Shown here piece by piece: positions 9,474-23,228 of a stretch of DNA of 64,000 nucleotides (positions within the stretch are counted from its first letter, which is position 1; every line of letters starts with the position of its first letter). Source of the DNA: Escherichia coli (GTDB lineage: Bacteria > Pseudomonadota > Gammaproteobacteria > Enterobacterales > Enterobacteriaceae); assembly GCF_013122565.1 (NCBI RefSeq), contig NZ_CP053258.1; one strand, written 5' to 3'. The notes under the pieces were generated by a model. That model saw nothing but the letters and a program-made list of their open reading frames with translations, had not been told where the DNA came from and did no database searches. Position numbers and translations under genes: made by a program.

Positions 9474-11312
9474 TTAAAAAATAACAGTATCAAACTTCCC
9501 AGAGTATATAAACTGGTTCAATGCCCGGTAATATGCTTCCCTACTGGCAACAGGAACATTTGCGGCATCAAACATTCGTTCAGTAAGATCTTTCATTTCT
9601 CTGCTACTTACTGTTGTCCAATCCACTTTCCCACCAACTCTTCTTCCGGTTTTCTGCTCTAACCAATCTCTATATACTTTTTTTGTTGCAGCATGATTAG
9701 CCTCGGATAATGCAATTGTTGGTGACTTTGAAGGATATTTCCCTCCATAAGATGGCACATTCTTAGACATCCAAATATCAAGCACACCATGATGGTTTTC
9801 TAAAGAGGAATTAATTGGTCGATAAGGAACAACATCAAACTCTTTAACTTCACCGCACTTAAGTCCAAGGGGATCTATCCACCCCAGCGGATTCGGCGCA
9901 TAAGCATACTGGTTCAGCCCACCCGCCAGCCCTATCGGGTCCTGGCTTACGAACCGCCCGCACTCCGGCGCATAATACCTGAACAGATTATAGTGCAGCC
10001 CCGTCTCTTCATCATAATACTGCCCCGGCAGCCGCAGCGGCTGTTCAAAGTACGCCCCGCTGTTGCTGATATCGCCCCGGTTTTCGCCAAATCCCGCCTG
10101 GTAGCCCGCCCACACCAGCGTCCCGTCCGCCGCGGTCACCTCCTGTACCGTGCCCGTCAGGTCCGTGTGGTAATACCAGATTTTTTGACTCTCTCCGCGC
10201 CCCGTGATGGCGGCCACCGGCGTGTACGGCTGTTCCGCGTCGTACAGGTATGTCCGCTTTCCCTGCCACGTTGTCTCCTGCAACAGCCGGAACCCTTCCC
10301 ACACAAACGTTGTCCGGCTTCGTTCTCCCCGGTCCGTATGGCGGCCATATGTCGCCTTGCTGATGCGCCTGCCCAGCGCATCATACTGATACCGCGTCTC
10401 GCTGTTGCTGCTGATGACCCGCGTTAACTGGCCCTGCGCGTTCCACTCCAGCTGCTGGTCCCTGCGCTCTGTCAGTTCGCCCCATTCGTTATAGCGGTAG
10501 CGGTCACGCCCGTAGCCCGGCAGGCGGTTATCCATCACCGCTCCCTGATATTCATCCGTCAGCAGGTTGCCCGCTTTATCGTAATAATAATGGTCATGGT
10601 CATACATCTGCCCCGTGCGGCTGGTCAGCCAGCCGCTGCGGTCATAGCTGAACACCAGGCAACCGCGCAGTTTGTCATTGATGCCGCCGACTTCACCGTC
10701 TGCGTTCCAGATATAGTCCCGCGCTGTCACGCTGTCGCTGTGTGACGGGGGTGTGGCTGTCTGCTGTGGGTTCTGGCTGCCGCCTGGCAGGCTGCGCTGC
10801 CAGCTTAACCGGTTGTCGGCGTTGTAGCCGCTGAACGTCGCCAGTTTCCCCTGGGTGCGCATCACCTGACGGTGCAGACTGTCACGCTCATATTCACTGA
10901 CCGTGATACCGTCCAGTGCCGTCTGGAGCAGATGTCCGCTGCCGTAGTAAAGATGGCTGAGGTGCTGCCCGTTCGGTAACGTGATGTCGGTGGGATTGCC
11001 CAGCGCGTCACGCTGATATTTTATGCTGCCGTGCACGCTGTGCTCTGCCGTCAGCCACCCGCTGCGGTCATACGCAAAGCGCACCGTGTCCGCCTGCATG
11101 TGGTGCAGCCGTTCCCCTTCTTTCGTCGGGGTGAGCGTCACTTCCGTTATCTGGTCAAGACGGTTGTAGCTGAAGGTCCGTGTACTGTGCTGCGTGTCAC
11201 TGCGCAACAGGCGGCCCAGCGCATCACGCTCCTGTCGCTCATTACGCACCCCGCCTTCTGTACCCTGCGTCTGGATGATGACCGGATACCCGCCCGCATT
11301 CAGCACAAACAT
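9474..11312 (-). CDS. orphan Rhs C-terminal fragment 1: core repeat, DPLGL, unassigned toxin tip
   Basis: About 1.6 kb homologous to main rhs (to ~11476, where an in-frame stop precedes it); first ATG at 11312; tip ~130 aa with no recognizable motif. Confidence 0.7.
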   Translation of the reverse strand: MFVLNAGGYPVIIQTQGTEGGVRNERQERDALGRLLRSDTQHSTRTFSYNRLDQITEVTLTPTKEGERLHHMQADTVRFAYDRSGWLTAEHSVHGSIKYQRDALGNPTDITLPNGQHLSHLYYGSGHLLQTALDGITVSEYERDSLHRQVMRTQGKLATFSGYNADNRLSWQRSLPGGSQNPQQTATPPSHSDSVTARDYIWNADGEVGGINDKLRGCLVFSYDRSGWLTSRTGQMYDHDHYYYDKAGNLLTDEYQGAVMDNRLPGYGRDRYRYNEWGELTERRDQQLEWNAQGQLTRVISSNSETRYQYDALGRRISKATYGRHTDRGERSRTTFVWEGFRLLQETTWQGKRTYLYDAEQPYTPVAAITGRGESQKIWYYHTDLTGTVQEVTAADGTLVWAGYQAGFGENRGDISNSGAYFEQPLRLPGQYYDEETGLHYNLFRYYAPECGRFVSQDPIGLAGGLNQYAYAPNPLGWIDPLGLKCGEVKEFDVVPYRPINSSLENHHGVLDIWMSKNVPSYGGKYPSKSPTIALSEANHAATKKVYRDWLEQKTGRRVGGKVDWTTVSSREMKDLTERMFDAANVPVASREAYYRALNQFIYSGKFDTVIF

Positions 11313-11517: not shown

Positions 11518-16474
<4,957 letters not shown>

Positions 16475-16497: not shown

Positions 16498-18711
16498 TTA
16501 TTCAGAAACGTCCGGGGTAGGTAACGGGGCAATATCATCCGCAGTCATGGCTGTGCCGCCATCCGGATTCATATCAATGCCACTGCCAATGAGTTGCATA
16601 ACATCGCTGGTGTGCAGTAAAAGTTGTTTTCCGCAAAACTCAATCGAGCCATCCTTGTGTAATACAAGCGCTGCATTGCCGCAACGAAGGGTAAATTGAT
16701 CGCCAACATCCAGACGATATGTCGTTCCGACATTGATGGTTTGAGCCAGTTTGACGGAAAGACCATCATTTTTTGTGATGGTGGCATTACGGTCTTCTCC
16801 CACGCTGATGGTTTCATTTTTGACAATGGTTTTTATGCGATCGACCATGACCGTGTGGGTTTCATTGTTTTTTACCGTGGTATTGAGGTCTTTTTCCGCA
16901 TGGAACTTCACCTCTTCTGCCCCCGTTTTATCGTCAAAGCGCAGCATGTTTCCGTTGGTCGGCCCGCCATACAGCGAGTGGCTGAATATCCCGCTCTGCG
17001 AGGCCATACCCGGCAGTCCCCACGGCGGCATGGTGTCCTGGTTATAGGTGCGCCCTACAATGATCGGTAAATCCGGGTCGCCGTTTTTGAAATCCACCAG
17101 CACTTCCTGACCGATGCGCGGGATCTGGATCATGCCGAATCCTTTCCCTGCCCACGGATAGCTGACGCGGATCCAGCAGGAGCTGTTTTCGTCATTATTA
17201 CCGTAACGATCCCAGCCAAACTGCACCTTCACCCGTCCATATTTGTCCGTCCAGATTTCCTGCCCCGCCGGGCCGGTGACGATGGCGCTCTGCGGGCCTT
17301 TGGTGTGGGGTTTGCTCAGGGTTCGCTGTGGGCGGTAAACTTCGCTGGTTGGGTGCAGTTCAAACGTGGTGACATAGGTAAAATGCTGATCCTGGCCGCT
17401 GTGCTGCGCATTGTCCCGTAAAAACAGCGTGGTCTGTACCAGCAGGTATTCCTGATTAATTTCTGCCGTCGGGTGATTCATCAATGTAAAGGTGTACCCG
17501 GTCATGAGGGTACGGATATGACCGGCCCCATGTGCCCGGCTGCCTGGGCTACGCTGCGCTTCCATACGAATACGCGTCAACATCTCGCCTTCGCCCGTAG
17601 TGAAGTAATCACCAGGCCATTCGTAATGCTCGTATTCAGCATGACCGGTATCACGCGGACTGGCCACGGTACTTTTAAGCAGCGAACGAGGCTTCATAAA
17701 ATCAAAATCGTCCATCACCCACTTTCCAGTACGCAGCCTCTCACTGGCCGTAATGGTGTGAATAAATTCCTTATCCAGTTTCAGCCCTTCCTGGTGCCAC
17801 TCCACCAGTGGCGAGTCAGGGCACGCTTTATGACCATTGATGGCATCCGCCAGCACCAGCGTGTGGCTGTTCTCGCTGTGCTCAAACCACCAGTAAATTC
17901 CCCACTCCTGCATCAGGCGCTGGATGAAATCAAAATCCGTTTCACCGTACTGTACCTGCCAGGCACGAGGTGGATAATTTTCCACCAGCCGTTTTTCCAC
18001 CGGAAAGGAATATTCATCCAGTACTTCATCGAGAATATCCACCACGGTTTTATTCTGGAACGCTTTGTAGTCGCTGGTGTGGGTCAGCAGTTTCAGCCAC
18101 GGTTCAATGCGTAATTCATACGTTACCGAGCGGCCCTCATGGCCCACCACCCGCGCCGCTGTCACCAGCCCGCTGATATGCCGTTTGCCGCCGCCGTCCA
18201 GTTCGATATTGACGCACAGATCTTTGCCCACCATGGGCTGAAGCGGCAGGTTAGCAGCGGGGGAAACGTACCCCAGGTTCAGGGCGTCCGGCGTTTTAAG
18301 CTGTACTGTGTAGGAAAACAGATTCCCAAGCCCTTCCGAACCATTCATGCCTGCAAACAAAAGCATCTGCGGCGGCACCGCACTACCACTTACTGTGACG
18401 TTATGCGCCCCCGGACCACCTGCAGCAAGCGACGCCGCCGCATCCTGAACTGCACCAGCCATATCCGATATCCCTGCTGCGGCGGCTGCGGCTTGCGCAG
18501 CAGCTACTGCGGCTTTAACCAGACCTGACGGTTCCGGCAACGCACCAAACAGGTCCGCCGCTGCCTGTTCTACCATCTGCTCGGCTGCATCAGCTACATC
18601 GGTTGCGGCTGAACCAGGGCTTATACCACCACTTTCGCCAGCTATTGGTGGTGTGGTGATGACGGGTCCACCGTTTCCAACTGGTTTATTACCCGTAGAT
18701 ACAAAACTCAT
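16498..18711 (-). CDS. vgrG: VgrG spike protein (TssI) with ~95 aa Ala/Gly/Pro-rich N-terminal extension
   Basis: gp27/gp5-like motifs ([39 protein letters not shown]); AAGGAG RBS 7 nt before ATG at 18711. Confidence 0.9.
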
Positions 18712-18735
18712 GATATTTGCTCCTTTAATACCGGA

Positions 18736-19122
18736 TTAAAATCTAGCCCCTGGTGGCCAAAAAATATAAGTAATAACTCTCCATTGCCCGTCTTTATAAT
18801 GAAACCAACATGTCAGATTCAAATCCCCCTGCAAATTCCAGAACATTTCCTTAATAGGAACATCTTGAAATTCAGGATCTGTTATGCGATAAGTTTGATT
18901 CAAGCCGATATAATACTCACCAACAAATTTATATCGTGGCCTCACGAACTCATGAGCAGGCGGCCCATATTTTTTCATAAAAAAGATGTCATTACTTCCA
19001 TCATGTATATCATTTTCTTCATAATATTTGGTGGATTGAGCAACTGCAGAAGGCTTGAAAACATTCACTGTAGTTATGTAAGTTATTGAAAGAAAAATCA
19101 CTATAATGCAGAAAAATTTCAT
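18736..19122 (-). CDS. putative secreted immunity protein for HExxH effector 1
   Basis: 128 aa with N-terminal signal peptide; paralog of 20819..21181; overlaps effector stop. Confidence 0.5.
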   Translation of the reverse strand: MKFFCIIVIFLSITYITTVNVFKPSAVAQSTKYYEENDIHDGSNDIFFMKKYGPPAHEFVRPRYKFVGEYYIGLNQTYRITDPEFQDVPIKEMFWNLQGDLNLTCWFHYKDGQWRVITYIFWPPGARF

Positions 19123-19820
19123 TTGGTTACATTCAATAAAGTAAATTTAGTTTCAGGCATTATGACATTCAACGTTATAGTTGCGTTTTTAAGGTATCGT
19201 TCCCGAAGCTCCATTCCCACATTCATCAACCCACTAATATCTCCAACATACGGAGACGAAGAATCATAATCATCATCTAAGTAACCAAGTACATGTCCGG
19301 CTTCATGAGGTATATTTACTTGCAACGTATTGTTACAGTTAATACATTTCGCTACTTTTTCCAGGTCCGCTGAATCAACATGAACCGTACTGTTTTTAAA
19401 ATCAACATATGTTCTTAAATCAGCACCAGGCAAAACCTTTGTTGCAATAACCAACCAGTCTTCATTCTGAGATGCAGAAATTATTCTTACATCAAAAGGC
19501 AAAGCTTTACCCTGAAATTTTTTAGCGAACTCAGATTCACCGGAAACAGAATAAGTTATTTTCCCATTCCATGCCTGCTGAACAGATAAATATATCGCTC
19601 GCATAAAAATAGCTTTTTCCCATATAGTCCAGTCATCTGTAACGGTATTATCCTTATACCACTCATACTTCCATCTTATCACAGCCGTAATCGAACCAGT
19701 ATTTTGATTTAATAAATACGTCCTCCTACCATCCTTATGTATAATGATATCGCCATCAATATTTGTTTTTTCATAGTATTCGGCCAGCAAACTATTCTCA
19801 TCATATTTAAGCTTGGTCAT
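19119..19820 (-). CDS. putative T6SS effector 1, HExxH zinc-metallopeptidase-like
   Basis: 233 aa, no signal peptide; HEAGHVLGYLDDDY motif; paralog of 21178..21984 (shared ALMNVGMELRERYL). Confidence 0.55.
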   Translation of the reverse strand: MTKLKYDENSLLAEYYEKTNIDGDIIIHKDGRRTYLLNQNTGSITAVIRWKYEWYKDNTVTDDWTIWEKAIFMRAIYLSVQQAWNGKITYSVSGESEFAKKFQGKALPFDVRIISASQNEDWLVIATKVLPGADLRTYVDFKNSTVHVDSADLEKVAKCINCNNTLQVNIPHEAGHVLGYLDDDYDSSSPYVGDISGLMNVGMELRERYLKNATITLNVIMPETKFTLLNVTK

Positions 19821-19879
19821 TTTACTCTCATTAAATAATAATTATTTGTATCGAAAATATTATTTTATATATTACGAGT

Positions 19880-19905
19880 ATTGCCCCTTCAGCCGCAGCG
19901 CATCC
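19880..19905. repeat. short remnant of the tagF 3' coding end
   Basis: cagccgcagcgcatccacataccg matches tagF 3' end at ~23275..23300. Confidence 0.5.
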
Positions 19906-20032
19906 ACATACCGTCCTTCACTGCAGGGCAAGATTACGAAAGCCCGCCCCCCGCAAGGACTGACGCGAGGTAGTTTCTGTCCATGGCTGCTTTTCTCATC
20001 TTACGTCTTAACCCTGCCTTGGTTTCGCCGTA

Positions 20033-20794
20033 CTACACCTGCCAGGCGCGGGGGGGATAATTTTCCACCAGCCGTTTTTCCACCGGAAAGGAATATTCAT
20101 CCAGTACTTCATCGAGAATATCCACCACGGTTTTATTCTGGAATGCTTTGTAGTCGCTGGTATGGGTCAGCAGCTTCAGCCATGGCTCAATGCGTAATTC
20201 ATACGTTACCGAACGGCCCTCATGGCCGACCACCCTCGCCGCCGTCACCAGCCCGCTGATATACCGTTTTCCGCCACCGTCCAGTTCAATGTTGACGCAC
20301 AGGTCTTTGCCCACCATGGGCTGAAGCGGCAGGTTAGCAGCGGGGGAAACGTACCCCAGGTTCAGGGCGTCCGGCGTTTTAAGCTGTACTGTGTAGGAAA
20401 ACAGATTCCCAAGCCCTTCCGAACCATTCATGCCTGCAAACAAAAGCAGCTGCGGCGGCACCGCACTACCACTTACTGTGACGTTATGCGCCCCCGGTCC
20501 ACCGGCAGCAATCGACGCCGCCGCATCCTGAACTGCACCAGCCATATCCGATATCCCTGCTGCGGCGGCTGCGGCTTGCGCAGCAGCTACTGCGGCTTTA
20601 ACCAGACCTGACGGTTCCGGCAACGCACCAAACAGGTCCGCCGCTGCCTGTTCTACCATCTGCTCGGCTGCATCAGCGACATCGGTTGCGGCTGAACCAG
20701 GGCTTATACCACCACTTTCGCCAGCTATTGGTGGTGTGGTGATGACGGGTCCACCGTTTCCAACTGGTTTATTACCCGTAGATACAAAACTCAT
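20033..20794 (-). pseudogene. truncated vgrG 5' duplicate (first ~253 codons with identical RBS and start)
   Basis: Near-identical to 17950..18711 including the Ala-rich extension; homology ends ~20025. Confidence 0.7.
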
Positions 20795-20818
20795 GATATT
20801 TGCTCCTTTAATACCGGA

Positions 20819-21181
20819 TTAAAATTTGGATCCTGGCGGCCAATAAACTCGGGATATAACTATCCATTTACCATTTTTATAATGAAGCCAACATGTTAAA
20901 TTTAGATCTTTATTAACATTCCAAAACATCTCCTTAATAGGAACATCTTTAAATTCAGGATTATTTGAAGGGTAAGTCCGTTCTATGCCACCATAATAAA
21001 TACCTACAAAATCATGCCTTGGGTTTATAAAATAATGTTCAGGAGAACCATATTTTCTCACTAGTGAATCTTCATCATCCCCCCACTGAACATCTTTGTT
21101 ATGCATCTCACTGGCAAAAATATCTAGAGTTACAAGCAATATCAATAACGTAAAAAATAGAGCGATTTTCTTCTGGATCAT
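20819..21181 (-). CDS. putative secreted immunity protein for HExxH effector 2
   Basis: 120 aa with signal peptide; C-terminal region paralogous to 18736..19122. Confidence 0.5.
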   Translation of the reverse strand: MIQKKIALFFTLLILLVTLDIFASEMHNKDVQWGDDEDSLVRKYGSPEHYFINPRHDFVGIYYGGIERTYPSNNPEFKDVPIKEMFWNVNKDLNLTCWLHYKNGKWIVISRVYWPPGSKF

Positions 21182-21984
21182 TTTATTACACTCGCAACAG
21201 AAAACGTAGTTAAGGGATATACTAAATTCAAGTCAATACAGACACCTTCCAGGTAGCGTTCCCGAAGTTCCATCCCAACATTCATTAACGCGGCAGTATC
21301 TATTTTATATTTAGACACAGGCTTACCAAACTTATCAAGTTCATATTCATCCTCCAGATAACGAATCATATGTCCAATTTCATGAACTATATTTACCTGA
21401 TAAAAACCACATATTGACTGATTCTCTGGAGCACATTTTTCTGATAACGAAGTATCTTTAAAATAAAAATGAGCAAACCGATTTTTCCAGTTAACATAAG
21501 GCCTGCCATCATCATTACCAGGAACGGTTCTTAATACGTCTACATTCCAGTGTTCTTTTTGATGGACCGGAATCATATTTATGCTGAAAGGCAATCTTTT
21601 ACTCTTGAATTTCTCAGCAAAATCAGAGTCCCCTGAGACAGATAAAAATATCTTATCATTCCATCCATAACAGATTGCAGAAAATGATTCATATATAAAA
21701 CTAACTTCATCCAGGTATGTCCAGTTATCTCCTACATTGTTCTGATTCACCCAGTTAAATTTCCATCTCATTAATAATGCAATGTCGCCTGTATCACTAT
21801 TCAGGATATATTCGCCATGTTCTGTATTCATCCTGAGACACTTCCCATCTTCTACGGTGTCAGGGCAAAACTTATGCATGAGTTTAATAAAGAATTCATG
21901 CGATAGATTTATTTTACTCTCTCCAACAACACCATCTACATGTGTTGTGAGCGAACCAGATTTATTCCCTGAAGAAGAACTCAT
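21178..21984 (-). CDS. putative T6SS effector 2, HExxH zinc-metallopeptidase-like
   Basis: 268 aa; HEIGHMIRYLEDEY motif; paralog of 19119..19820. Confidence 0.55.
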   Translation of the reverse strand: MSSSSGNKSGSLTTHVDGVVGESKINLSHEFFIKLMHKFCPDTVEDGKCLRMNTEHGEYILNSDTGDIALLMRWKFNWVNQNNVGDNWTYLDEVSFIYESFSAICYGWNDKIFLSVSGDSDFAEKFKSKRLPFSINMIPVHQKEHWNVDVLRTVPGNDDGRPYVNWKNRFAHFYFKDTSLSEKCAPENQSICGFYQVNIVHEIGHMIRYLEDEYELDKFGKPVSKYKIDTAALMNVGMELRERYLEGVCIDLNLVYPLTTFSVASVIK

Positions 21985-22311: not shown

Positions 22312-22773
22312 CTACTCATCCGTACAACCCAGCCCCCGGCGCTGAACCACTTCACTGGCAAACGTTGCTCCGGTTTTTTTCATTATTCCCTGCTGGATTT
22401 TTTGTAACTCCGGGTATACAACCCGCTCACATTCATTTATTTCCCATATGTCACCCGTCTTAGGACTAACCGAAAACAACCCTAAATAGTCTGTTGCTCC
22501 AGCAGTCGGCGTATCATAGCCAAGACTAAAATCATAATATCCGGGATGAGGCGCATTGCCCTGACCATCCTGTAAATCTCCATCAATAAAAATCCCTTCC
22601 AGCGATAAATTATACTTTTGGTGCCTGAGTACAATAATAAGCAGTTTTTCCGCCTGTGCTTTCGTCATCCCTTCGCGGTTTATATCTGATAAATTAAATT
22701 CAGACGTATTCCCCTGAACGTAGCAAACCGCAGAGGCAAGAAGAAAAAAAACAAATATTATTTTACGGGGCAC
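22312..22773 (-). CDS. putative secreted immunity protein (Tgi-like)
   Basis: 153 aa with signal peptide; immediately downstream of and overlapping the glucosaminidase-like gene. Confidence 0.5.
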   Translation of the reverse strand: MPRKIIFVFFLLASAVCYVQGNTSEFNLSDINREGMTKAQAEKLLIIVLRHQKYNLSLEGIFIDGDLQDGQGNAPHPGYYDFSLGYDTPTAGATDYLGLFSVSPKTGDIWEINECERVVYPELQKIQQGIMKKTGATFASEVVQRRGLGCTDE

Positions 22774-23228
22774 GCCATTCTCCTTCCGACCATAATAATA
22801 ATGTCAGCAGTTTTTTTGGCATAATTATCTGTTCCGCCTGTGCTACTATCTCCAGAATTAAATCCGGCCTTTACCAGAGCATCACAGAAAGCCAAAGCAT
22901 CCTTTATGTCTCTGGCTGCATTACCATATTTTATTGCAAAAGATCGTGCACAGATTGAAAAAGACGGAAAAGTAGCCACCCGGGTTTTCTTGTTACCGTG
23001 CGGACGGATTTCGCCTGACTGAAATGATGCAGGGGCATGCAGGGAGAAATAGTTGTTATATTCCCTGGCAATACGGCCTGTACCATACTGGCTCTCCGCC
23101 GCGGCAAGCCCCAGAATATTTTCCACAGGAACATTAAGTTGTTTAGCGATTAATTCACATTCTTTCAGATGCTGCTGAACAAACCTTACTGCATTAACAT
23201 CATTACAGGCTTTGTCATAAGACCCCAT
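22758..23228 (-). CDS. putative peptidoglycan glycoside-hydrolase effector (FlgJ/GH73 glucosaminidase-like, Tge-like)
   Basis: 156 aa, no signal peptide; ILGLAAAESQYG and NNYFSL resemble the FlgJ glucosaminidase motifs. Confidence 0.55.
   Translation of the reverse strand: MGSYDKACNDVNAVRFVQQHLKECELIAKQLNVPVENILGLAAAESQYGTGRIAREYNNYFSLHAPASFQSGEIRPHGNKKTRVATFPSFSICARSFAIKYGNAARDIKDALAFCDALVKAGFNSGDSSTGGTDNYAKKTADIIIMVGRRMACPVK

What the first reader, a model, noticed from the sequence alone, without database searches (positions are those of the whole stretch)
16498..18711. VgrG with a ~95 aa low-complexity N-terminal extension
The conserved VgrG N-terminus begins near [19 protein letters not shown], but the ORF continues in frame ~95 codons upstream through an Ala/Gly/Pro-rich segment to an ATG at 18711 with a strong AAGGAG RBS 7 nt away. 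The same RBS, start and extension are preserved in the truncated duplicate at 20033..20794. VgrG proteins normally start at the gp27-like domain, so this may be a cargo-adaptor or regulatory segment.
Basis: seen in the sequence. Interest (0 to 1): 0.6.

Follow-up and report, generated by a model that had tools for sequence, protein, structure and literature searches.

The report
VgrG spike with conserved N-terminal tail
The extra ~100 amino acids at the front of this E. coli type VI secretion spike protein are real, translated and under selection. The same tail is already annotated, and was noted as "predicted disorder", in the Salmonella orthologue VgrS, and its function has never been tested.

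Summary
ORF 16498-18711(-) encodes a 737-aa VgrG whose gp27-like domain starts near residue 103. An ATG at 18711 and an AAGGAG (8-nt spacer) precede a ~100-aa Ala/Gly/Pro-rich segment. The truncated copy at 20033-20794 repeats all of this.

The window is an E. coli SPI-6-type (subtype i3) T6SS locus. The protein is 86-91% identical, over its full length, to Salmonella VgrS/STM0289 (729 aa).

The tail is translated:
- The start codon and Shine-Dalgarno site are kept in 12 loci, even where the upstream gene is unrelated.
- All indels are in frame.
- dN/dS is 0.10-0.39 with near-saturated dS.
- [16 protein letters not shown] is almost invariant.

The tail occurs only in Escherichia, Salmonella and Citrobacter. 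It is not tied to the HExxH genes. Closely related VgrGs manage with 18 aa (E. coli orphan island, often in the same genome) or 38 aa (C. farmeri).

A 2025 preprint deleted residues 1-80 of VgrS as "predicted disorder" to crystallise it. So the feature is known but uncharacterised.

My best reading, which is inferred, is a flexible tail at the Hcp-facing base of the spike that presents a docking motif to a conserved partner. Interest is moderate to low.

The parts
16498..18711 (-). Full-length vgrG/tssI (737 aa + stop). Orthologue of Salmonella VgrS/STM0289.
   Evidence: ORF. TIGR03361 E=2e-166; Pfam Phage_GPD, Phage_base_V and Gp5_trimer_C. 86-91% identity at 100% coverage to 725-738-aa Salmonella VgrG clusters. 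PDB 9MLP, the VgrS 81-729 construct, aligns to query residues 90-732.
18720..18725 (-). Shine-Dalgarno AAGGAG, 8 nt before the ATG.
   Evidence: Sequence. An SD at the same spacing is kept in 12 loci, including two where the upstream sequence is unrelated (AGAAGGA / AAAAGGA).
18406..18711 (-). N-terminal extension, codons 1-102. Ala/Gly/Pro-rich, acidic, predicted disordered with transient helices.
   Evidence: dN/dS 0.10-0.39 with dS 0.4-1.6. The third codon position varies in 87/102 codons, against 45 and 39 for positions 1 and 2. Length is 88-106 aa in 120 cluster representatives. AF2 pLDDT about 25-52, with low-confidence helices at about 33-55, 63-78 and 84-96.
18505..18552 (-). Conserved core motif [16 protein letters not shown] (residues 54-69).
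   Evidence: L54, G56, L58, P59, E60, P61, S62, G63, L64, V65, K66, A67, A68 and V69 are invariant in 31 full-length orthologues from E. coli, Salmonella and Citrobacter. Segment 36-72 has dN/dS 0.03-0.26, apart from one near-identical E. coli pair with only one synonymous difference.
18646..18657 (-). Invariant TTPP (residues 19-22) within the N-terminal part of the extension.
   Evidence: T19, T20, P21 and P22 are invariant in alignment A3.
17410..18336 (-). gp27-like hub domain (Pfam Phage_GPD, residues 126-434).
   Evidence: E=2.7e-101.
16672..17247 (-). gp5-like OB fold and beta-helix (Phage_base_V residues 489-556; Gp5_trimer_C residues 573-680).
20033..20794 (-). Truncated vgrG duplicate (253 codons) with identical SD (20803-20808), start and extension.
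   Evidence: The equivalent copy in E. coli AR_0077 is annotated by PGAP as a pseudogene, 'phage late control D family protein, missing C-terminus'.
18736..19820 (-). Upstream cassette 1: HExxH protein (233 aa, 19119-19820) plus a small protein with a signal-peptide-like N-terminus (128 aa, 18736-19122). Context only, not part of the extension.
   Evidence: No Pfam or NCBIfam match. GC 32-38% against 60% for the extension.
20819..21984 (-). Upstream cassette 2: HExxH protein (268 aa) plus small protein (120 aa), preceding the truncated vgrG.
   Evidence: 39% identity to cassette 1.
11871..16474 (-). Downstream partners: DcrB/DUF1795 Eag-type chaperone gene (16031-16474) and PAAR-Rhs effector gene (11871-16010).
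   Evidence: Orthologous loci are annotated as DcrB-related protein plus RHS core protein, with prePAAR_I and PAAR Pfam hits.

Best explanation
What it is (well supported). This is the cluster-encoded VgrG spike protein of an E. coli SPI-6-type (subtype i3) type VI secretion system, an orthologue of Salmonella VgrS. Translation starts at the ATG at 18711. The first ~100 residues are a genuine N-terminal tail kept by purifying selection. The tail has four parts:
- a conserved MSFVST...TTPP head;
- a variable acidic Gly/Ser/Ala stretch;
- a nearly invariant motif, [16 protein letters not shown];
- an Ala-rich linker of variable length that joins the first beta-strand of the gp27-like hub (HNVTVSG).

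How it most likely works (inferred). The gp27 hub is the end of the spike that sits on the Hcp tube. By homology with tube-fold proteins, its N-terminus lies at the Hcp-facing base. The three tails of a trimer would then act as flexible tethers at, or inside, the gp27 cup / Hcp interface. Each would present the invariant motif to a partner that is itself conserved. Candidates are Hcp, the inner face of the gp27 cup, or a baseplate subunit.

This would tune spike-tube or spike-baseplate assembly. It is not an essential structural element, and it is not an adaptor for one particular cargo.
For: Translated and selected:
- SD plus ATG are kept at the same position in 12 loci, even with unrelated upstream genes.
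- ATG1 is the only start-type codon present in all 11 full-length sequences. Residue 46 is a start-type codon in 9/11 and residue 84 in 7/11.
- Every length difference among these sequences leaves the frame open. The extension is 88-106 aa in 120 cluster representatives, and 118 of them begin MSFVST.
- dN/dS is 0.10-0.39 with dS about 0.4-1.6. The core 36-72 is at 0.03-0.26.
- Variation is dominated by the third codon position.
- PGAP annotates the same start.
- Sachar et al. treat VgrS as 729 aa.

A conserved partner rather than variable cargo:
- The motif is invariant across E. coli, Salmonella and Citrobacter loci that carry different upstream cassettes or none.

Flexible tether:
- The linker after the motif carries most of the in-frame indels and a tandem duplication.
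- AF2 gives only low-confidence helices.
- Residues 1-80 were called predicted disorder.

Compatible experimental hints from the preprint:
- Full-length VgrS was insoluble.
- VgrS lacking residues 1-80 crystallised with an unusually open, domain-swapped gp27 base and did not bind Hcp2 in gel filtration.

Belongs to vgrG, not to the cassette:
- The extension is 60% GC like the rest of vgrG, while the upstream cassettes are 32-38% GC.
Against: - No partner has been identified, and nothing here tests binding.
- The position of the N-terminus at the Hcp-facing or inner side of gp27 rests on fold homology and my recollection, not on coordinates examined here.
- Close relatives work, or at least persist intact, without the motif. 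The E. coli orphan vgrG (665 aa, 18 residues before HNVT) is in 226 of 5426 complete genomes, and at least 19 of these also carry the long form. Citrobacter farmeri has a cluster-encoded VgrG with a 38-aa tail lacking the motif. So the tail cannot be needed for basic spike function.
- The open conformation and lack of Hcp2 binding have other explanations, which the authors themselves offer.
- The tail is restricted to three genera.
Confidence: 0.5

Rival explanations
1. Cargo adaptor. The tail recruits effectors encoded in the variable cassettes immediately upstream of vgrG, such as the HExxH proteins, for loading on or in the spike.
For: - vgrG lies directly downstream of exchangeable cassettes that look like effector/immunity pairs. 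The first ~760 nt of vgrG is duplicated together with a cassette.
- N-terminus type tracks cassette type. Cassette families A and B, or no cassette, go with the long tail. Cassette family C goes with the short N-termini of C. farmeri and the E. coli orphan island.
- Sachar et al. suggest the gp27 cavity could hold cargo.
Against: - The core motif is invariant while the cassettes differ: 39% identity between two HExxH variants, an unrelated 233-aa protein, or no cassette in the S. Typhimurium type.
- The cassette/N-terminus correlation is what physical linkage predicts. Between two Salmonella alleles, dS is 0.98 in the extension but 0.13 in gp27, which places a recombination breakpoint near the junction.
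- The small partner proteins have signal-peptide-like N-termini, so the HExxH proteins look like ordinary periplasm-acting cargo. For such cargo Hcp-lumen or C-terminal VgrG loading is the known route (established knowledge, not tested here).
Confidence: 0.15
2. Largely non-functional low-complexity expansion. An Ala/Gly-rich tail grew by slippage on a short ancestral N-terminus and is merely tolerated.
For: - Low complexity and low AF2 confidence.
- Frequent in-frame indels and a tandem duplication in the Ala-rich linker.
- Natural short forms of 18 and 38 aa in close relatives.
- Narrow taxonomic range.
- Removing residues 1-80 gave a folded trimer.
Against: - dN/dS is well below 1 with saturated synonymous change.
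- A 16-residue block is invariant between genera whose synonymous sites in the same segment have diverged to dS >= 1.
- Tandem Repeats Finder finds no repeat in this copy.
- The length stays within 88-106 aa in 120 cluster representatives.
Confidence: 0.2
3. The conservation reflects a nucleic-acid role. The 5' end of vgrG would serve as a homology anchor for cassette exchange, or as a translational or mRNA regulatory element, rather than a protein function.
For: - The duplicated segment, from the SD to about codon 253, is about 99% identical between the two copies in the window.
- There is a mosaic dS pattern between Salmonella alleles.
- Relics keeping only the first 71 nt occur in at least 11 E. 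coli genomes.
Against: - Between genera the DNA is heavily diverged at synonymous sites (dS about 1 or more) while the amino-acid motif is kept. That is the signature of selection on the protein.
- The recombination tract in the window runs far into gp27, so it does not single out the extension.
Confidence: 0.05
4. Mis-called start. Translation begins at an internal codon near the gp27 domain and the upstream frame is open by chance.
For: - In-frame ATGs exist at codons 46 and 84 in the window, and there is a weak AGGGA 9 nt before codon 84.
- The region is GC-rich, and GC-rich sequence tends to stay open.
Against: - Codon 84 is ATG in only 7/11 orthologues and codon 46 in 9/11. ATG1 with its SD is kept in all.
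- The frame stays open and shows a coding substitution pattern across three genera.
- The short-form relatives start with the same MSF residues at an equivalent SD plus ATG.
Confidence: 0.03

Closest known systems
Salmonella enterica serovar Typhimurium VgrS (VgrG of the SPI-6 T6SS; STM0289 / SL1344_0284; PDB 9MLP)
   Same: - 86-91% identical over the full length, including the extension, in the Salmonella VgrG clusters. PDB 9MLP, the VgrS 81-729 construct, aligns to query residues 90-732.
- The Salmonella alleles start with the same MSFVST and carry the same [16 protein letters not shown] motif.
- Same gene order at the Salmonella loci sampled: tagF, variable cassettes, vgrG, eag (DcrB), PAAR-Rhs.
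- Residues 1-80 are described as a region of predicted disorder and were removed for crystallography.
   Different: - The host is E. coli, with the locus next to yafV-ivy-fadE.
- The linker is a few residues longer (737 against 729 aa).
- The window has HExxH cassettes and a truncated duplicate upstream. The S. Typhimurium-type locus has DUF2195 plus a 173-aa gene and a ~400-nt gap.
Canonical VgrG/TssI spikes with solved structures (P. aeruginosa VgrG1 4MTK/4UHV, P. protegens VgrG1 7Q5P, E. coli c3393 2P5Z, EAEC VgrG 6SJL)
   Same: Same gp27-like hub, OB fold and gp5-like beta-helix. E-values range from 2e-132 to 3e-23, aligned from query residue ~99-122 onward.
   Different: They start 1-36 residues before the aligned point and have no counterpart of residues 1-97. 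Of 529 plasmid records with a VgrG homologue, only three, at 80-90% identity, are close relatives. The one listed, from Salmonella, covers the whole query. The other listed hits begin at query residue 103 or later.
E. coli orphan vgrG-eag-rhs island next to yncE/ansP (664-665-aa VgrG) and Citrobacter farmeri cluster VgrG (674 aa)
   Same: About 82-91% identical in the gp27 region to the short-tail query used. Same MSF start at an equivalent SD plus ATG. Same downstream DcrB-type chaperone and Rhs.
   Different: Only 18 or 38 residues precede HNVT, and the LPEPSGLVK motif is absent. The upstream cassette belongs to a different family. The orphan form coexists with the long form in at least 19 complete E. 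coli genomes.
'Evolved' (specialised) VgrGs with effector or adaptor-binding extensions
   Same: A VgrG core carrying an extra segment that might mediate a lineage-specific function.
   Different: In the papers consulted here, evolved VgrGs and VgrG-mediated cargo loading are described as involving the C-terminal end. The named examples I have in mind (ACD, DUF2345/TTR, pyocin-like nuclease) are from my own knowledge. Here the segment is N-terminal, at the opposite (Hcp) end. It is ~100 aa, disordered, and has no detectable domain.

Membership tests
TssI/VgrG type VI secretion spike | gp27-like hub domain (Phage_GPD / TIGR03361) | tested here: met
   TIGR03361 scores 554.6 bits against a cut-off of 186; Phage_GPD E=2.7e-101.
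TssI/VgrG type VI secretion spike | gp5-like OB fold followed by a trimeric beta-helix | tested here: met
   Phage_base_V at residues 489-556 and Gp5_trimer_C at 573-680. Full-length alignment to solved VgrGs.
TssI/VgrG type VI secretion spike | Encoded in a T6SS locus with core genes | tested here: met
   In the window, TssE, TssA, TagF, TagK and Hcp match NCBIfam models. Orthologous E. coli loci are annotated tssJ, K, L, M, C and hcp.
TssI/VgrG type VI secretion spike | Forms a trimer that caps the Hcp tube and is secreted | not testable with these tools
   Shown for the Salmonella orthologue as a crystallographic trimer. Not tested for this protein.
VgrS-type (SPI-6 / subtype i3 cluster-encoded) VgrG with long N-terminal tail | Tail of 88-106 aa before HNVTVSG, starting MSFVST | tested here: met
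   102 aa in the window. 118 of 120 cluster representatives start MSFVST.
VgrS-type (SPI-6 / subtype i3 cluster-encoded) VgrG with long N-terminal tail | Invariant [16 protein letters not shown] motif | tested here: met
   Residues 54-69.
VgrS-type (SPI-6 / subtype i3 cluster-encoded) VgrG with long N-terminal tail | Position between tagF / variable cassettes and the eag (DcrB) - PAAR-Rhs pair | tested here: met
Evolved / specialised VgrG effector | C-terminal extension carrying a toxin or adaptor-binding domain beyond the beta-helix | tested here: not met
   Only about 57 residues follow Gp5_trimer_C and no extra domain is detected. Sachar et al. describe the VgrS C-terminal tail (711-729) as short.
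   The long tail occurs with cassette families A and B or with none. The short tails occur with family C. Linkage by recombination explains this equally well.
   No multimer modelling or binding assay is available here, and no report was found in the literature.

The most novel reading that the evidence does not exclude
The three N-terminal tails lie inside the gp27 cup or the first Hcp ring. Their invariant LPEPSGLVK motif acts as a built-in latch that closes the gp27 base and licenses Hcp docking. That would explain why VgrS lacking residues 1-80 is open, domain-swapped and unable to bind Hcp2. It would amount to a lineage-specific, spike-encoded checkpoint for tube initiation, distinguishing the cluster-encoded VgrG from the tail-less orphan VgrG in the same cell.
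Probability: 0.15. Interest if true: 0.6.

Novelty: already known. Interest (0 to 1): 0.35.

Why it matters
Known VgrG decorations sit at the C-terminal, target-facing end of the spike. A conserved segment at the N-terminal, Hcp-facing end is unusual. It lies where spike, tube and baseplate meet, a step of T6SS assembly that is still poorly understood.

If the invariant motif binds Hcp, the gp27 cup or a baseplate subunit, three things would follow:
- It would give a handle on how tube polymerisation is initiated.
- It might explain how a cell discriminates between a cluster-encoded and an orphan spike.
- It would qualify the only structure of this protein, because that structure was solved without the tail.

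If the tail is merely tolerated, the finding is a routine annotation detail. Either way the start-codon call is confirmed, for this gene and for its truncated duplicate.

Tried and rejected
- **AlphaFold2, full length.** A 31-sequence alignment of close orthologues gave mean pLDDT 30. The model is unusable, so no fold search was run.
- **AlphaFold2, residues 1-127.** pLDDT about 49, with only low-confidence helices. The tool returns no coordinates or PAE and models single chains only. I could not locate the N-terminus relative to the cup, and could not co-fold with Hcp.
- **phmmer of the extension against 1.84 billion representatives.** Only 26 hits, all short VgrG N-terminal fragments or pseudogene pieces. 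No other protein context for the motif turned up.
- **Genome-collection scan.** It used a single peptide pattern, LPEPSGLVK, and confirmed only two species. It therefore under-samples diverged tails.
- **Extension against all ORFs of the window.** Only the two vgrG copies matched.
- **Domain searches on the extension.** Pfam gave only a chance Peptidase_S21 hit at E=5.6, and NCBIfam gave nothing.
- **Thr-phosphorylation / FHA idea for the invariant TTPP(I/V).** I found no TagH/FHA, PpkA or PppA among the T6SS genes checked in the window, so I dropped it.
- **Transmembrane idea.** The maximum 19-residue Kyte-Doolittle mean is 1.15, so I rejected it.
- **Tandem-repeat origin.** TRF finds nothing in this copy.
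- **HExxH proteins.** No Pfam or NCBIfam family. A Salmonella effector survey mentions a Tox-HopH1 metallopeptidase, but I could not test identity with it.
- **Literature searches.** Searches for a described VgrG N-terminal extension found only the one-line mention in the VgrS preprint.
Full report
**Observation.** The ORF at 16498-18711 on the minus strand is 737 codons and starts with ATG. The curated VgrG model TIGR03361 begins to match at residue 112 (model position 7), and Pfam Phage_GPD at residue 126. Phage_base_V (489-556) and Gp5_trimer_C (573-680) follow. The 102 residues before HNVTVSG are 28% Ala, 15% Gly and 8% Pro, with net charge about -7 and no Arg, His, Trp, Tyr or Cys. The 253-codon ORF at 20033-20794 repeats the Shine-Dalgarno site, start and extension. 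It is about 99% identical in DNA from 25 nt upstream of the ATG to about nt 760, then diverges.

**Where the window comes from.** The gene matches E. coli chromosomes at up to 96.9% identity. In those genomes it lies in a T6SS cluster (hcp, tssJ, K, L, M, tagF, variable small genes, vgrG, a DcrB-related Eag chaperone, PAAR-Rhs) next to yafV-ivy-fadE. PGAP annotates the same 737-aa reading frame. NCBIfam finds TagK, TssE, TssA, TagF, Hcp and an STY0301-family protein elsewhere in the window. The best protein matches outside E. coli are 725-738-aa VgrGs of Salmonella enterica, at 86-91% identity and 100% coverage. One solved structure, 9MLP, aligns to residues 90-732. It is the S. Typhimurium SPI-6 spike VgrS (STM0289), described in preprint 10.1101/2024.12.20.629533. 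A Salmonella effector survey places this kind of cluster in T6SS subtype i3.

**Is the extension translated?** Four lines of evidence say yes.
- I extracted vgrG with its upstream 60 nt from 12 loci: E. coli, an unnamed Escherichia species, three Salmonella alleles and Citrobacter amalonaticus. All have ATG-AGT-TTT at the same place, with an SD 7-8 nt upstream. That includes two loci whose upstream gene, and therefore upstream sequence, is unrelated.
- The first ATG is the only start-type codon present in all 11 full-length sequences. Residue 46 is a start-type codon in 9 and residue 84 in 7. The reading frame has no stops in any orthologue, while the other two frames have 2-6.
- Nei-Gojobori estimates give dN/dS of 0.10-0.39 for codons 1-102, with dS of 0.4-1.6. 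The gp27 region is at 0.03-0.13, and the central segment 36-72 is as low as 0.03-0.06 in several pairs. Third positions vary in 87 of 102 codons, against 45 and 39 for first and second positions.
- In 120 protein-cluster representatives the tail is 88-106 aa and always in frame, and 118 begin MSFVST.

A mis-called start is therefore very unlikely.

**Anatomy of the tail.** Alignments show four parts:
- a conserved head, MSFVSTxNK;
- an invariant TTPP, followed by a variable acidic Gly/Ser/Ala stretch;
- a helix-prone AEQxxEQA, followed by the almost invariant [16 protein letters not shown] (residues 54-69 in the window, 18505-18552);
- an Ala-rich linker that carries most of the indels and, in one Salmonella allele, a tandem duplication (AAGMAQAAAAAGMAQ).

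AlphaFold2 gave no confident structure. The full-length run failed outright on a shallow alignment (pLDDT 30). Residues 1-127 alone reached pLDDT about 49, with low-confidence helices near 37-55, 64-78 and 87-96. This agrees with the preprint, which calls residues 1-80 a region of predicted disorder. There is no transmembrane-grade hydrophobic stretch, no tandem DNA repeat, no Pfam or NCBIfam domain, and no similar sequence elsewhere in the window.

**Distribution.**
- A phmmer search of the tail against 1.84 billion cluster representatives found only 26 proteins. All are short N-terminal VgrG fragments. Those that carry names are Salmonella.
- A scan of one genome per species with the LPEPSGLVK pattern confirmed only Escherichia sp. 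E1V33 and Citrobacter amalonaticus.
- Of 529 plasmid records with a VgrG homologue, only three, at 80-90% identity, are close relatives. The one listed, from Salmonella, covers the whole query. The other listed hits begin at query residue 103 or later.
- Solved VgrGs from Pseudomonas and E. coli align their first 1-36 residues to query residues 99-122.
- The tail DNA is present in 144 of 5426 complete E. coli genomes, 113 of them full length.

This tail is a clade-specific feature of Escherichia, Salmonella and Citrobacter.

**Natural short forms.** A diverged fragment led to a VgrG with only 38 residues before HNVT: MSFASTDNKSGKAESPAINSLPIAVVKAAQAAVASGLGA|HNVT. Searching with it found the 674-aa cluster-encoded VgrG of Citrobacter farmeri. 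It also found a large group of 664-665-aa E. coli VgrGs with only 18 residues: MSFAATDYPSGALTGSGT|HNVT. The E. coli form lies in an orphan vgrG-eag-rhs island beside yncE/ansP, with its own SD and an AT-rich non-coding region upstream. The C. farmeri form lies in a main cluster. The orphan's 5' end is in 226 of 5426 genomes. At least 19 complete genomes appear in both the long-form and short-form hit lists. The C. farmeri tail reads like an internal deletion of the long form: head and VKAA...G.GAHN are retained. VgrGs about 82-91% identical in the hub thus exist without the motif, so the tail cannot be required for basic spike function.

**Relation to the HExxH genes.** The long tail is found downstream of four different contexts:
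- HExxH proteins of 233-268 aa, which are only 39% identical between the two copies in the window;
- an unrelated 233-aa protein, in one Salmonella and one E. coli allele;
- in the S. Typhimurium-type locus, a DUF2195 gene and a 173-aa gene;
- in that same locus, a ~400-nt gap that still ends in a short stretch resembling the sequence just upstream of vgrG in the cassette-bearing loci.

The motif is identical in all of them, which argues against a cassette-specific adaptor. The two short-tail VgrGs both follow a third, different cassette family (no similarity to the first). So there is a correlation between N-terminus type and cassette.

That correlation is what linkage predicts. The window's own duplication carries cassette plus the first ~760 nt of vgrG as a unit. 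Two Salmonella alleles differ by dS 0.98 in the tail but only 0.13 in gp27, which puts a recombination breakpoint near the junction. Compositionally the tail (60% GC) belongs with vgrG (52-59%), not with the cassettes (32-38%).

**What is known.** The only mention I found is in the VgrS preprint. Full-length VgrS (729 aa) was insoluble. A construct of residues 81-729, which removes the predicted disorder, was soluble and crystallised. It showed an unusually open, domain-swapped gp27 base and did not bind Hcp2 by gel filtration. The authors do not discuss the N-terminal region further. Searches for VgrG N-terminal extensions returned papers about PAAR, Rhs or IglG extensions instead. A recent Salmonella T6SS review does not mention it. 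An N-terminal His tag on Serratia VgrG1 is tolerated, so small N-terminal additions need not block assembly.

**Mechanism.** Shown: the tail is made, is under purifying selection, has an invariant linear motif on a flexible linker of variable length, and is dispensable in close relatives. Inferred: the rest.
- The gp27 hub is the end of the spike that meets Hcp. This is established knowledge and is restated. Its first strand belongs to a tube-like domain.
- In Hcp itself, residue 3 lines the inner rim of the ring, as used for the inner measurement.
- I therefore think the three tails emerge at the Hcp-facing base, plausibly toward the lumen. There they would present the motif to a partner that is conserved across these genera: Hcp, the cup itself or a baseplate subunit. 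That would modulate spike-tube or spike-baseplate assembly.

I put about one chance in three on this specific mechanism, and about 0.95 on the identity and translation of the segment. The rivals, in order, are: a tolerated low-complexity expansion (0.2), a general cargo adaptor (0.15), a DNA- or RNA-level role (0.05) and a wrong start (0.03).

**Verdict.** The segment is unusual for VgrGs in general, but it is the already annotated tail of the VgrS-type spike, briefly noted in the literature. The suggested link to the HExxH proteins is not favoured. It remains a small, testable open question rather than a new kind of system.

Noticed in passing
window 18736-21984 (-): Two tandem units, each made of an HExxH protein (233 or 268 aa; 39% identical), a small protein with a signal-peptide-like N-terminus (128 or 120 aa), and the 5' end of vgrG. 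The layout looks like cassette displacement by recombination, leaving a 253-codon vgrG remnant with an intact SD and start. The HExxH proteins match no Pfam or NCBIfam family. They are probably an uncharacterised periplasm-acting metallopeptidase effector family with its immunity proteins.
   Followed up: partly
L014:8001-9998 (E. coli orphan island by yncE/ansP); L016:6001-8025 (Citrobacter farmeri): Close VgrG relatives with only 18 or 38 residues before the gp27 domain. Both follow a third cassette family (133/197-aa HExxH-containing protein plus a 118/108-aa protein). The orphan form is in 226 of 5426 complete E. coli genomes, and at least 19 of these also carry the long-tail cluster VgrG.
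   Followed up: partly
E. coli genomes H197-H207; L013:541-3380; P0145: At least 11 complete E. coli genomes keep only the first 71 nt of vgrG ([23 protein letters not shown]...) fused to an Rhs fragment. These look like scars of deletions that removed vgrG, eag and the 5' end of rhs.
   Followed up: no
L005 vs L006 (Salmonella alleles P0059 and P0060): Synonymous divergence is 0.98 in the tail but 0.13 in gp27 and 0.08 in gp5. This implies a recombination breakpoint near the tail/gp27 junction. The 5' end of vgrG appears to be exchanged together with the upstream cassette.
   Followed up: partly
P0143 / P0155 (Salmonella, 161 aa): A protein with the first ~35 residues of the VgrG tail, joined to a sequence resembling the VgrG C-terminal tail (…LTADEVAPPPP) and an unrelated charged domain. 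It is probably an internal vgrG deletion that creates a new fusion.
   Followed up: no
window 18139-18528 (+) and 20222-20611 (+): 129-aa antisense ORFs lie exactly over the Ala-rich part of both vgrG copies. They are most likely a by-product of GCN-rich codons on the coding strand, not genes.
   Followed up: no
window 9474-11312 (-) and further downstream of rhs: A 612-aa ORF matches only the C-terminal RHS core, YD repeats and Rhs-associated core domain. It is an orphan Rhs C-terminal fragment downstream of the main rhs gene, as is usual in Rhs arrays.
   Followed up: no
window 22312-23228 (-): A glucosaminidase-domain protein (156 aa) and an overlapping 153-aa gene lie between tagF and the HExxH cassettes. 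The orthologous pair in Salmonella loci hits Pfam Glucosaminidase and T6SS_Tgi2PP, which suggests a peptidoglycan-hydrolase effector/immunity pair.
   Followed up: no
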